Sequence record: PZ452584.1
Length of the DNA stretch: 64,000 nt
Reading direction: 5' to 3' (one strand)
From: a phage
In this document: positions 1 through 2,487 of the stretch, piece by piece
Layout of the letters: each line of letters opens with the position of its first letter
How positions within the stretch are numbered: the first letter of the stretch is position 1
Translations under genes and position numbers: made by a program
Notes under the pieces: generated by a model
Told to the model about the DNA's origin: nothing
Database searches by the model: none
What the model saw: the letters and a program-made list of their open reading frames with translations, nothing else

Positions 1-641
1 ACATCTTTTATAACTTTTTCACTATCAAAACTTTCTTTATTTTCCTTCGATGGAAAAAGCTTATTCTCTACATCATTCCATGTATAAACTCGCTGCGCAG
101 TTTTTGGAATACTGTCACGCTCCCCTCGAGCCATCCAATAAACAGGAACATTTAATATTTCACTCGCATGATCGCAGTGGTGAGCGAGATCGTCAATATA
201 ACAAATTACGTTATATTTCTCTTTTGCCTTTTTGAACAACTCTTCTTTTGAAGAATCATGACCACACATCAATACTTCTGAGAAGGCACCAGGAAAAAGA
301 GCATTCAAATTAAATTGACGATTCAGCAGAGCGTCAATAGAATCACCCAATGCTGTAACAGCTACAAAATTATAATCTTCTTTTAATTTGTTAATTACAC
401 ACAGGGCATCTTTATACGGAGACAAGTAACGAATAAAATCTGAACGATTGTATTTTTCAATTAACTTGACGCCAAGTTCTTCGTCACAATTAAAGAGTTT
501 ACCTGGAGAAATAAATTTCTCATCTTGGATCATTTTTAAAATATGTTCTAACGGAAGATTATATTTCTGAGCAAAATAAGGAAGGCCTGATTGCCAGCTT
601 AAACATACTCCATCAATATCAGTTAAAATAGTAGGCTTCAT
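1..641 (-). CDS. HAD-superfamily phosphatase / 5'(3')-deoxyribonucleotidase-like protein (N-terminal ~213 codons; 3' end beyond window)
   Basis: ATG at 641-639 overlaps upstream stop (ATGA); N-terminus MKPTILTDIDGV has HAD motif I (DxDG); frame open to position 1; absent from ORF track because no stop in window. Confidence 0.5.
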   Translation of the reverse strand, partial: MKPTILTDIDGVCLSWQSGLPYFAQKYNLPLEHILKMIQDEKFISPGKLFNCDEELGVKLIEKYNRSDFIRYLSPYKDALCVINKLKEDYNFVAVTALGDSIDALLNRQFNLNALFPGAFSEVLMCGHDSSKEELFKKAKEKYNVICYIDDLAHHCDHASEILNVPVYWMARGERDSIPKTAQRVYTWNDVENKLFPSKENKESFDSEKVIKD

Positions 642-1096
642 AGAGAGTCTCTTAATAGGTTTAACACATCAATAAATTCAGCTTCGGTTAGTATTGTATC
701 ATCTTTTGTTAGACCACTAGCCATGCTGTGCTTCAAAACTTTTCCTTTCGAGGCTAGTAATGCATCACGAAAGCCCTTGTTTTGAATCGCTGCTTCAAAA
801 TATGCATTTGTGTATAATTCTTTCCACGCTGTGGAGTATCTTGAAAACGGAACTCCAAGCCAGAAGAGGGTCCCACGGTCCTGAGCTCTAGCATAAGACC
901 TTCCAGCTTGTTGGGCGGCAAGCCCGGATAACCCAAATACACGACGTTGTTGTTCAACATTTTTCACCTTGCATCCTTGGAGGAATCCTTCAAGACCTCC
1001 AAATTGAATACCATCCATGACGAAAGGCCATTGGGCAAAATTACTTAATGCGCATGATGGCCATCTAAAATTGCTTCTAATCTCTAACTCAGACAT
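638..1096 (-). CDS. YbiA/NADAR-family (DUF1768-like) protein
   Basis: Track ORF 638-1102 trimmed to first ATG; motif LSNFAQWPF..DG..EGFLQGCK resembles FSNF..WP..DG core of YbiA-type NADAR domains; start uncertain. Confidence 0.5.
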   Translation of the reverse strand: MSELEIRSNFRWPSCALSNFAQWPFVMDGIQFGGLEGFLQGCKVKNVEQQRRVFGLSGLAAQQAGRSYARAQDRGTLFWLGVPFSRYSTAWKELYTNAYFEAAIQNKGFRDALLASKGKVLKHSMASGLTKDDTILTEAEFIDVLNLLRDSL

Positions 1097-1295
1097 TTTC
1101 AATACTTATAATTTCAACATCAGCCCAATGACCATAGCAAGGAAGACGAAATTCAACTGGCCAGTTAGGGTCCTTTTCTAATATAATAGACTTAACTTGC
1201 GGTTCTTCGTGTTCATCAGTATACGGATTTTTATCTGTTACTTTATATGTTACCTTAATGTACTGAATTCCAAAAATCTTATTAATTATATTCAT
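1089..1295 (-). CDS. hypothetical protein (68 aa)
   Basis: Track ORF in minus-strand array, overlaps neighbours by a few nt; start codon not verified. Confidence 0.45.
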   Translation of the reverse strand: MNIINKIFGIQYIKVTYKVTDKNPYTDEHEEPQVKSIILEKDPNWPVEFRLPCYGHWADVEIISIENV

Positions 1296-1489
1296 ACTAA
1301 TTCCTTTAGTCCGTAGATAGGAGATAATTCATCGCCCATACGAAGGTCTTCATTTCCATCTACCCAAGAAACAATATAAGCCTCTTTTACTTGAACATTT
1401 CCCAATTTAAATGCGGGTAAAACCTTAGAAATTAATCCAGGTATACCAACTCCCTTTAATTCAACGGTTTGGCCTAAAAAGAATTTCAT
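1292..1489 (-). CDS. hypothetical protein (65 aa)
   Basis: Track ORF in minus-strand array; 4-nt overlap with neighbours typical of T4 coupling. Confidence 0.45.
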   Translation of the reverse strand: MKFFLGQTVELKGVGIPGLISKVLPAFKLGNVQVKEAYIVSWVDGNEDLRMGDELSPIYGLKELV

Positions 1490-1776
1490 TAGAACCTCAT
1501 CTGAAAACCATGTGATTTAACATTACCGCCATTAATATCAGAACTATTAATTTCACGTGCAATTGAGGGATCAATGTCAATTTCGCCATTAAGTTTAATG
1601 ATAGACAAAGTATCACGCCCATTTACTGTGCGGAACTCTAAAGGACAAACTACATCAACGTAGTTTTTAATCGATTCACTGGTAGGCTGCAAATGAGCAG
1701 GAAGGTCTTTAGGCGCCTTTGAGAAAACTACTTCACAGAAATTTTTGCGGGTGTCAAAATAAGTAGTCATAAACAT
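1489..1776 (-). CDS. hypothetical protein (95 aa)
   Basis: Track ORF 1489-2058 trimmed to ATG at 1776-1774 preceded by GAGGAAAA; longer frame would run through a promoter and terminator. Confidence 0.5.
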   Translation of the reverse strand: MFMTTYFDTRKNFCEVVFSKAPKDLPAHLQPTSESIKNYVDVVCPLEFRTVNGRDTLSIIKLNGEIDIDPSIAREINSSDINGGNVKSHGFQMRF

Positions 1777-1794
1777 AACATTTTCCTCAGTAAA

Positions 1795-1820
1795 GGGCCG
1801 AAGCCCTTTTCTTTTGTTTG
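1795..1820. other. GGGCCGAAGCCC hairpin in 5' leader, followed by T-run on plus strand
   Basis: Same hairpin sequence as at 38701 and 38929; strand of action ambiguous. Confidence 0.35.
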
Positions 1821-1829
1821 TGTAAGATA

Positions 1830-1859
1830 ATACTATCACAAAGGAACCGTACTGTAAAC
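1830..1859 (-). promoter_or_regulatory. T4-type early promoter (-35 GTTTAC, 18-bp spacer, -10 TAGTAT)
   Basis: gtaaac at 1854-1859 and atacta at 1830-1835 on plus strand. Confidence 0.5.
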
Positions 1860-1877
1860 AACTTTGTGCAATCTTTG

Positions 1878-1907
1878 GAAAATAAAAAAGGACTCCCGAA
1901 GGAGTCC
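1878..1907 (-). terminator. intrinsic terminator (GGACUCC-UUCG-GGAGUCC hairpin + U-run on minus transcript)
   Basis: ggactcc cgaa ggagtcc at 1890-1907 preceded on plus strand by A-run 1881-1889. Confidence 0.65.
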
Positions 1908-1912
1908 TCAAC

Positions 1913-2089
1913 TTATGCTTTCTGCTTACCAAAACGAGAAGCATCATCTCGAAGAACCGCACGTGCTCGGCGCATGATCTTCTCAACAGTTTGATTGATA
2001 CGAGAGTTCGACCCACGCTTGTAACCAGCGCGTTTAGAATCACCAACTTTCTTTTCAACTGCTTTCTTTGCTTTAGCTTGTTTTGCCAT
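1913..2089 (-). CDS. small highly basic protein (58 aa, MAKQAKAKKAVEKK...)
   Basis: Track ORF 1913-2131 trimmed to ATG at 2089-2087 with AAGAGA upstream; followed by intrinsic terminator 1878-1907. Confidence 0.5.
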   Translation of the reverse strand: MAKQAKAKKAVEKKVGDSKRAGYKRGSNSRINQTVEKIMRRARAVLRDDASRFGKQKA

Positions 2090-2487
2090 TATAAATTCTC
2101 TTTTAAATGAAAATGCAGGACTTATTGGCATTGCCTGCGCAAGCCCTCAAGGGGAACATAGGTTTTTGGATATTTAACGACCAGGATAACCATAAACCCG
2201 TCATCATACCTTATAGCTCTTATCTGTTGCACACCGTTAGCTTAAAGGTTCCGGGTTCGATTTCTCGAGGATAAGATATATACTGATGGATATATAGGCC
2301 TTGAGGCGTACTCCCGATTGGCCATCACCTCGGGGTAGCATGCACTTGCCGCTATAAGAATAACATTCAAGAGGTACACCATAAAACTGCCGAGGTCTTA
2401 AAACTATAATGATTCGCAAATCATTAATCAGACAGTTCGATGGCTCCTCGATTTTAGCTCACACTAAGGCAGTGAATCTCCAATAAA

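What the first reader, a model, noticed from the sequence alone, without database searches (positions are those of the whole stretch)
1..1102. NADAR/YbiA-like ORF translationally coupled to a HAD-type nucleotidase ORF
ORF 638-1096 carries LSNFAQWPF..DG..EGFLQGCK, which resembles the FSNF..WP..DG core of YbiA-type NADAR (DUF1768) domains. NADAR enzymes act on ADP-ribose derivatives and have been implicated in reversing DarT-type guanine ADP-ribosylation of DNA. Its stop overlaps (ATGA) the start of an ORF beginning MKPTILTDIDGV, a HAD phosphatase motif typical of 5'(3')-deoxyribonucleotidases. The pair could be a nucleotide-salvage or anti-defence module rather than core replication machinery.
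Basis: partly seen in the sequence, partly recalled or inferred. Interest (0 to 1): 0.55.

Follow-up and report, generated by a model that had tools for sequence, protein, structure and literature searches.

The report
Phage T4 adfN (NADAR) plus gene 30.2
This is the T4-type phage gene 30.3 (adfN), a published enzyme that removes ADP-ribose put on phage DNA by the bacterial DarTG1 defence, followed by gene 30.2, an uncharacterised HAD-family phosphatase; the main finding is correct but already known.

Summary
The window is a T4-like (Tequatrovirus) genome, and both ORFs lie on the minus strand. ORF 638-1096 is gene 30.3 (Pfam Phage_30_3, E=1.4e-69) and is 148/152 identical to T4 gp30.3. My AlphaFold model matches only NADAR structures (YbiA, Phytophthora NADAR, Geobacter lovleyi NADAR). 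T4 gp30.3 was published in 2024-2025 as AdfN. It is a His-variant NADAR that removes guanine ADP-ribose from DNA and is necessary and sufficient for T-even resistance to DarTG1.

The ATGA overlap is real. The downstream ORF (1-641, cut by the window edge) is gene 30.2. It has an intact HAD phosphatase fold with all four motifs, and its closest relatives are 5'(3')-deoxyribonucleotidases (NT5C), although that match is below family thresholds.

Published T4 transposon data show that 30.2 is dispensable on DarTG1 (log2FC -0.12), whereas 30.3 is not (-7.25). The pair is therefore not an obligate anti-DarTG1 module, and every gene junction in this cluster overlaps anyway.

One new lead came up. gp30.3-type NADAR domains are fused to NT5C domains in at least 120 Bacteroidales protein clusters, next to SIR2, TIR and ADP-ribosylglycohydrolase genes. 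This hints at a shared ADP-ribose pathway.

The parts
638..1096 (-). Gene 30.3 = adfN. It encodes a 152-aa His-variant NADAR ADP-ribosylglycohydrolase. Catalytic codons are E36 (991-989) and K43 (970-968), with last-strand H123 (730-728). The protein is full length, with no RB69-type truncation.
   Evidence: Pfam PF08010 E=1.4e-69. It is 148/152 identical to T4 gp30.3. The AF2 model has pLDDT 85.6. The top Foldseek PDB hits are 2b3w YbiA, 8bau and 8bat, all NADARs. Function was shown for the T4 orthologue in PMC11825919 and PMC11125620.
1..641 (-). Gene 30.2, first 213 of 279 codons; the gene continues beyond the window start. It is a HAD-superfamily phosphatase with a helical C1 cap. Motif I is D8/D10 (620-618, 614-612), motif II is T96 (356-354), motif III is K132 (248-246), and motif IV is D150-D151 (194-189).
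638..641 (-). ATGA start/stop overlap between 30.3 and 30.2.
   Evidence: Read directly from the sequence. A possible AAGAG Shine-Dalgarno lies about 9 nt upstream of the 30.2 ATG, so either translational coupling or independent initiation is possible (inference).
754..960 (-). ORF 30.3', an alternative-frame ORF inside 30.3. It is annotated in T4 as an internal translation product. Here it is 68 aa, against 75 aa in T4.
1089..1295 (-). Gene 30.4 (68 aa), immediately upstream. Its stop overlaps the 30.3 start by 8 nt. It is the only other T4 gene that becomes conditionally important on DarTG1.
   Evidence: T4 TnSeq sheet S6 gives 30.4 log2FC -1.79, adjusted p 0.014. Homologues are found only in T-even-clade loci and always abut 30.3.

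Best explanation
ORF 638-1096 (minus strand) is the orthologue of T4 gene 30.3, named adfN. Its product is a small stand-alone NADAR-fold N-glycosidase. It carries the conserved Glu36 and Lys43 of the ADP-ribose pocket, and a histidine (His123) replaces the usual last-strand Glu/Asp. When a host DarT1 toxin ADP-ribosylates guanines in single-stranded phage DNA and blocks replication, AdfN hydrolyses the guanine-ribose bond. This releases ADP-ribose, restores the base and lets replication continue. These steps were shown for T4 AdfN by others and are inferred here from 97% identity and intact residues. The overlapping downstream ORF is gene 30.2. It is a catalytically intact Mg-dependent HAD phosphatase whose cap and the motif after the nucleophile (DGVxxxWQSGL) most resemble 5'(3')-deoxyribonucleotidases. 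It probably dephosphorylates a nucleotide or a ribose-phosphate-type small molecule (inferred; the substrate is unknown). It is co-transcribed with adfN in a tightly packed early-gene string, but it is not needed for DarTG1 evasion.
Confidence: 0.88

Rival explanations
1. 30.3 and 30.2 form a two-enzyme ADP-ribose-processing module. The NADAR cuts the N-glycosidic bond. The NT5C-like phosphatase then handles a phosphorylated product or substrate, such as ribose-5-phosphate or AMP from released ADP-ribose, ADPr-phosphates, or ADP-ribosylated (deoxy)nucleotides. This step is useful but not essential against DarTG1.
For: gp30.3-type NADAR (PF08010) and NT5C (PF06941, 61 bits against a cut-off of 24.8) occur in one polypeptide, in the same N-to-C order as the T4 genes. 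At least 120 Bacteroidales protein clusters show this. These fusions sit in operons with SIR2 plus ADP_ribosyl_GH, or with TIR genes. gp30.2 aligns to the fused NT5C domain by hhalign at 82% probability, E=1e-5. In 38 of 79 viral loci a NADAR gene lies upstream on the same strand as 30.2. Both genes occur in about 1,450-1,500 phage records with nearly identical genus counts. Aravind and colleagues note HAD 5'-nucleotidases coupled to ADPr glycohydrolases in other systems (PMC9503650).
Against: T4 insertions in 30.2 are neutral on DarTG1 (log2FC -0.12, p=0.61, 71 sites). In 41 of 79 loci no NADAR lies within 4 kb; for example, in Enterobacter phage PG7 the two genes are about 55 kb apart. Three non-Straboviridae phages with the NADAR have no HAD neighbour. 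Co-presence may only reflect shared ancestry within Straboviridae. The gp30.2 HMM does not detect the fused domains directly.
Confidence: 0.3
2. gp30.2 is an independent nucleotide-pool enzyme, a 5'(3')-(deoxy)nucleotidase used in phage dNTP economy. It is adjacent to adfN only because T4 packs unrelated early genes together.
Against: The recurrent NADAR-NT5C fusion in bacteria is hard to explain by chance. There is no biochemical evidence. NT5C membership is below threshold.
Confidence: 0.4
3. gp30.2 is the unidentified T-even factor that AdfN needs for full activity in vivo.
For: AdfN(T4) works fully only during Tevenvirinae infection, and DNA modification was excluded as the reason (PMC11825919). 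30.2 is the overlapping neighbour, and RB69-like phages also carry it.
Against: The genome-wide T4 TnSeq on DarTG1 finds only 30.3 and 30.4 significant. 30.2 is unaffected. Redundancy is the only escape from this result.
Confidence: 0.04
4. gp30.2 is a nucleic-acid end 3'-phosphatase, like the HAD domain of T4 Pnk. It would work with the nearby DNA ligase (gene 30) to repair breaks left at ADP-ribosylated sites.
Against: gp30.2 has a large helical cap, which is typical of small-molecule HAD enzymes; Pnk-type phosphatases lack such a cap (own knowledge). NT5C-type hits rank better. There is no TnSeq phenotype on DarTG1.
Confidence: 0.06

Closest known systems
AdfN (anti-DarT factor NADAR) = T4 gp30.3 (Johannesman et al., Nat Commun 2025, PMC11825919; Toxins 2024, PMC11125620)
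   Same: It occupies the same locus between 30.4 and 30.2. It is 148/152 identical to T4 gp30.3, has the same length, and has the same E36/K43/H123 residues.
   Different: There are four conservative substitutions (V53I, T89P, L114Q, M125I). Activity has not been tested in this phage.
DarG1 / DarT1-associated NADAR antitoxins (e.g. Geobacter lovleyi NADAR, PDB 8bat)
   Same: It shares the NADAR fold and the conserved Glu/Lys pocket, and the T4 orthologue has guanine-ADPr hydrolase chemistry (PMC11125620).
   Different: It has no adjacent DarT toxin, and the literature reports no N-terminal extension. The last-strand residue is His instead of Asp. T4 AdfN cannot replace DarG1 in uninfected cells.
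E. coli YbiA / COG3236 NADAR (PDB 2b3w)
   Same: It is the best structural match (TM 0.67, E=1.2e-4) and the best profile hit. The FSNF..WP..DG..E..Q..K motif is shared.
   Different: Identity is about 18%. YbiA has Glu in the last strand and, according to the literature, is linked to riboflavin-intermediate hydrolysis. The Pfam NADAR model does not reach this protein.
Cytosolic/mitochondrial 5'(3')-deoxyribonucleotidases cdN/mdN (Pfam NT5C, PDB 2jao, 2i7d, 1mh9) and S. epidermidis 3bwv
   Same: Both have a HAD core plus a helical cap. The stretch after motif I matches: DGVxxxWQSGL in gp30.2 against DGVLADFESGL in cdN. cdN is the top Foldseek hit and the top profile hit.
Bacteroidales NADAR(gp30.3-type)-NT5C fusion proteins (e.g. 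P0132, P0359)
   Same: They contain the same two domain types in the same order as genes 30.3 then 30.2. The NADAR domain carries the phage-type His.
   Different: They are single bacterial polypeptides in SIR2/TIR/ARH neighbourhoods. Their NT5C domain is canonical, whereas gp30.2 is a divergent relative (hhalign 82%). Their function is unknown.

Membership tests
NADAR superfamily | [quoted passage not shown] | tested here: met
   The AF2 model (pLDDT 85.6, pTM 0.83) has this topology. The only Foldseek PDB hits with probability >0.1 are 2b3w, 8bau and 8bat, all NADARs.
NADAR superfamily | Conserved catalytic/ADPr-binding Glu and Lys (E..Q..K motif) and a charged or His residue in the last strand | tested here: met
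   E36, K43 and H123 are invariant in the family alignment, where they are numbered E38, K45 and H125 from the TTG start. The alignment to YbiA pairs the E and K residues. The roles of these residues come from PMC11825919 and PMC11125620.
NADAR superfamily | Significant match to Pfam NADAR PF08719 | tested here: not met
   Only PF08010 hits this protein. Nine of 56 PF08010 relatives hit PF08719 with E values from 1e-3 down to 1.2e-6, below the gathering score in the cases inspected. Pfam keeps the two as separate models. Fold and residues decide membership here.
AdfN (T4 gp30.3 orthologue) | Orthology: near-identity, the same genomic position, and full length including the C-terminal helix lost in RB69 | tested here: met
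   It is 148/152 identical, 152 aa long, and lies between 30.4 and 30.2.
AdfN (T4 gp30.3 orthologue) | Removes guanine-linked ADP-ribose from DNA and protects the phage from DarTG1 | not testable with these tools
   This was shown for the T4 protein (PMC11825919, PMC11125620; TnSeq). It is inferred here by identity.
DarTG1 toxin-antitoxin (DarG1 antitoxin) | NADAR encoded next to a DarT1 ADP-ribosyltransferase and able to neutralise it in uninfected cells | tested here: not met
   The neighbours are 30.4 and 30.2, with no DarT. T4 AdfN fails to rescue DarT1 toxicity. It is an orphan antitoxin-like enzyme, not a TA component.
HAD superfamily phosphatase | Four motifs: DxD nucleophile/acid, S/T, K, and DD | tested here: met
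   D8, D10, K132, D150 and D151 are invariant and T96 nearly invariant in 27 relatives. Their codons were verified in the window sequence.
HAD superfamily phosphatase | Rossmannoid HAD core fold with cap | tested here: met
NT5C 5'(3')-deoxyribonucleotidase family (PF06941) | Match to the family model above threshold | tested here: not met
   This protein has no hit. Five of 27 relatives hit with a best E of 1.2e-4.
NT5C 5'(3')-deoxyribonucleotidase family (PF06941) | Closest solved relatives are cdN/mdN, including the cap and the post-motif-I signature | tested here: inconclusive
NT5C 5'(3')-deoxyribonucleotidase family (PF06941) | dNMP phosphatase activity | not testable with these tools
   No paper on gp30.2 was found.

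The most novel reading that the evidence does not exclude
Genes 30.3 and 30.2 may be the split form of a two-domain NADAR-NT5C enzyme that is widespread in Bacteroidales NAD+/ADP-ribose conflict islands, next to SIR2, TIR and ADP-ribosylglycohydrolase genes. Under this reading gp30.2 acts in the same ADP-ribose-processing pathway as AdfN. It might clear phosphorylated ADPr-derived products or ADP-ribosylated nucleotides, or counter a different NAD-based defence than DarTG1. The His-type 'phage' NADAR clade would then have a broader, non-DarT role. A side lead concerns gp30.4, which is restricted to T-even phages. It is the only other DarTG1-conditional T4 gene, so it, rather than gp30.2, could be the unknown factor that AdfN needs in vivo.
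Probability: 0.3. Interest if true: 0.55.

Novelty: already known. Interest (0 to 1): 0.25.

Why it matters
The main object is a textbook-phage gene whose function was established in 2024-2025, so the scan has rediscovered a known anti-defence enzyme. The value here is confirmation: this phage carries an intact adfN and should resist DarTG1. What remains open is gp30.2, which is present in about 1,400 sequenced phages and has no known substrate. The NADAR-NT5C fusion and its SIR2/TIR/ARH neighbourhoods give a concrete, testable reason to ask whether a phosphatase step belongs to phage handling of ADP-ribose chemistry. The published TnSeq table also points to 30.4 as a cheap candidate for AdfN's missing T-even cofactor.

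Tried and rejected
- **Sequence-level links to NADAR.** A direct Pfam NADAR hit and a single-sequence PDB search for gp30.3 both found nothing. The link needed a profile, a structure model and the literature.
- **gp30.2 family hits.** Pfam and NCBIfam gave nothing for gp30.2.
- **tRNA-like stretch.** A tRNA-like stretch near 2230-2290 was checked with ARAGORN and Rfam, and neither found anything.
- **Direct detection of the fused domains.** The gp30.2 HMM against 147 gp30.3-family representatives gave no hit. The fusion was found through Pfam NT5C instead.
- **gp30.2 as AdfN's missing T-even factor.** I considered this and rejected it on T4 TnSeq data.
- **ATGA overlap as evidence of coupling.** I rejected this as non-specific, because all junctions in the cluster overlap.
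- **Strict 30.2-30.3 linkage.** This was rejected. The genes are unlinked in 41 of 79 loci, and no HAD neighbour is present in three non-Straboviridae phages.
- **Literature searches that found nothing.** 'gp30.2' returned 0 papers, and a search for cdN/mdN pocket residues returned 0. The apparent match of W16, F43 and Y64 to cdN aromatic pocket residues rests only on the alignment and my memory, so I do not rely on it.

Full report
**What the window is.** The first 2.4 kb match hundreds of Tequatrovirus genomes; the best places are mostly 95-99% identical. The ORF string on the minus strand reproduces the T4 map: cd, 31.2, 31.1, 31, rIII, 30.9, 30.6, 30.5, 30.4, 30.3, 30.2. All features of the finding are therefore minus-strand genes of a T4-like phage.

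**Observation.** The ORF from ATG 1096 to the TGA at 640-638 encodes 152 aa with the quoted LSNFAQWPF..DG..EGFLQGCK stretch. The ORF listing also offers an upstream TTG at 1102, but homologues and T4 start at the ATG. The stop overlaps the ATG (641-639) of an ORF that begins MKPTILTDIDGV. That ORF leaves the window after 213 of its 279 codons. The overlap is not distinctive, however, because every junction from 30.6 to 30.2 overlaps by 1-8 nt.

**Identity of ORF 638-1096.**
- It matches Pfam PF08010 (Phage_30_3) at E=1.4e-69 and is 148/152 identical to T4 gp30.3.
- No PDB chain matches by single-sequence search.
- An AlphaFold2 model (pLDDT 85.6) matches only three structures with meaningful probability: YbiA 2b3w (E=1.2e-4, TM 0.67), Phytophthora NADAR 8bau and Geobacter lovleyi NADAR 8bat.
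- Nine of 56 family members also touch Pfam NADAR PF08719. The NADAR fold and residues are thus established, although the Pfam NADAR model itself does not reach this protein.

**What is already known.**
- PMC11125620 calls phage NADARs 'gp30.3 proteins' and notes that a histidine replaces the last-strand Glu/Asp. It shows that the phage enzyme hydrolyses guanine-ADP-ribose but not thymidine-ADP-ribose in vitro, and that it cannot rescue DarT1 toxicity in cells.
- PMC11825919 renamed T4 30.3 adfN. [quoted passage not shown] E36A and K43A mutants are impaired, and the purified protein removes ADP-ribose from DarT1-modified DNA.
- AdfN works fully only in Tevenvirinae infections. DNA hypermodification was excluded as the reason, and an unknown T-even factor was proposed.
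- The window's protein keeps E36 (991-989), K43 (970-968) and H123 (730-728) and is full length, so it should be an active AdfN (inference from identity).

**Gene 30.2.**
- No Pfam or NCBIfam model hits it. Its family is large: 100 listed relatives across Straboviridae and 1,440 phage records by tblastn.
- The four HAD motifs are conserved: D8-x-D10, K132 and D150-D151 are invariant and T96 nearly invariant in 27 diverse relatives.
- The AF2 model is confident for residues 1-200. The T-even-specific C-terminal tail is disordered.
- Foldseek ranks mouse cytosolic 5'(3')-deoxyribonucleotidase first. The family profile's only significant PDB sequence hit is the same enzyme, aligned from motif I through the cap to motif II (E=0.0075). 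Five of 27 relatives hit Pfam NT5C (best E=1.2e-4).
- Conclusion: gp30.2 is a HAD phosphatase, and NT5C-like is the best but unproven subfamily.

**Are the two a module?** The evidence points both ways.
- *Against:*
  - Of 79 viral loci with a 30.2 relative, 38 carry a gp30.3-type gene upstream on the same strand and 41 do not.
  - In Enterobacter phage PG7 the two genes lie about 55 kb apart.
  - Three non-Straboviridae phages have the NADAR among tRNA and RNA-repair genes with no HAD neighbour.
  - The published T4 transposon screen gives the clearest answer. On DarTG1 only two genes are significant: 30.3 (log2FC -7.25) and 30.4 (-1.79, adjusted p 0.014). Gene 30.2, with 71 TA sites, is unaffected (-0.12, p 0.61), and 30.2 is non-essential.
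  - gp30.2 is therefore not required for DarTG1 evasion and is very unlikely to be AdfN's missing cofactor.
- *For:*
  - A whole-library HMM search found 1,450 gp30.3-type clusters.
  - Among the multi-domain members, some carry a C-terminal NT5C domain above Pfam's threshold.
  - A follow-up search found at least 120 clusters with both domains, from Prevotella and Bacteroidaceae chromosomes.
  - These fusions sit in operons with SIR2 plus ADP-ribosylglycohydrolase, or beside TIR proteins.
  - gp30.2 aligns to the fused domain at 82% hhalign probability.
  - The fusion has the same order as 30.3 then 30.2. This suggests the two activities can serve one ADP-ribose-related pathway, with the phosphatase step non-essential against DarTG1.
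  - I rate this reading at about 0.3.

**Verdict.** The central object is already known (adfN), so novelty is low. The residual interest lies in the uncharacterised gp30.2, the NADAR-NT5C fusion lead, and gene 30.4 as a possible AdfN partner. That last signal could equally be a polar effect, because the 30.4 stop overlaps the adfN start by 8 nt and gp30.4 homologues occur only in the T-even clade.

Noticed in passing
window 1089-1295 (-): Gene 30.4 (68 aa) overlaps the adfN start by 8 nt. In the published T4 TnSeq it is the only gene besides 30.3 that is significantly depleted on DarTG1 (log2FC -1.79, adjusted p 0.014). Its homologues are found only in T-even-clade loci and always abut 30.3. 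The depletion is either a polar effect or a sign that 30.4 is AdfN's unknown T-even cofactor.
   Followed up: partly
window 1806/1807 junction; window 2208-2362: Relative to T4, the window lacks 781 bp that hold gene 30.7 and most of 30.8. Window 1-1806 aligns to T4 locus L002 3171-4976, and window 1807-2207 aligns to L002 5759-6159. A 155-bp patch between 30.9 and rIII has no T4 match.
   Followed up: partly
P0132, P0270-P0388; loci L082-L090: gp30.3-type (His) NADAR domains are fused to canonical NT5C domains in at least 120 Bacteroidales protein clusters. The fusions lie in operons with SIR2 plus ADP_ribosyl_GH, or next to TIR-Sel1 and RyR-domain genes. The 'phage' NADAR clade is therefore abundant in bacterial chromosomes.
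   Followed up: partly
P0123, P0125, P0126, P0138, P0212 (about 290 aa): These proteins carry two tandem gp30.3-type NADAR domains, which matches the 296-position PHROG 652 profile. Other family members are fused to ASCH, LRR, GDSL-lipase or UPF0227 domains.
   Followed up: no
L091 (Sinorhizobium phage phiN3), L092 (Ralstonia RsoM2USA), L093 (Ralstonia RSP15): Outside Straboviridae, the same NADAR type sits among tRNA gene arrays, an RNA ligase and a CCA-adding enzyme. This is consistent with the proposed link of some NADARs to RNA repair rather than to DarT.
   Followed up: partly
gp30.2 residues about 200-279 (beyond the window start; P0023 and relatives in A2): The disordered T-even-type C-terminal tail contains a short conserved motif, G[IV]EY[LWY]xN[RQ]PT, in several divergent phages. 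It may be a docking peptide.
   Followed up: no
window 754-960 (-): The alternative-frame ORF 30.3' inside adfN, annotated in T4 as an internal translation product, is conserved here but ends 7 codons earlier than in T4.
   Followed up: no
window 1909-1888 (-) and 1858-1830 (-): A strong terminator-like hairpin (GAGGACTCC-TTCG-GGAGTCCTT followed by a T-run) lies just after 30.9. A promoter-like site (TTTACA-17-TAGTAT with TG) follows, upstream of 30.6. This could define the start of the 30.6-to-30.2 transcription unit.
   Followed up: no
T4 locus L002 1-1003 (outside the window, downstream of gene 30): In T4, the Alt ADP-ribosyltransferase gene lies only about 2.8 kb downstream of adfN, in the order 30.3-30.2-30.1-30-alt.1-alt. 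An ADPr 'writer' and an ADPr 'eraser' therefore share one genomic neighbourhood.
   Followed up: no
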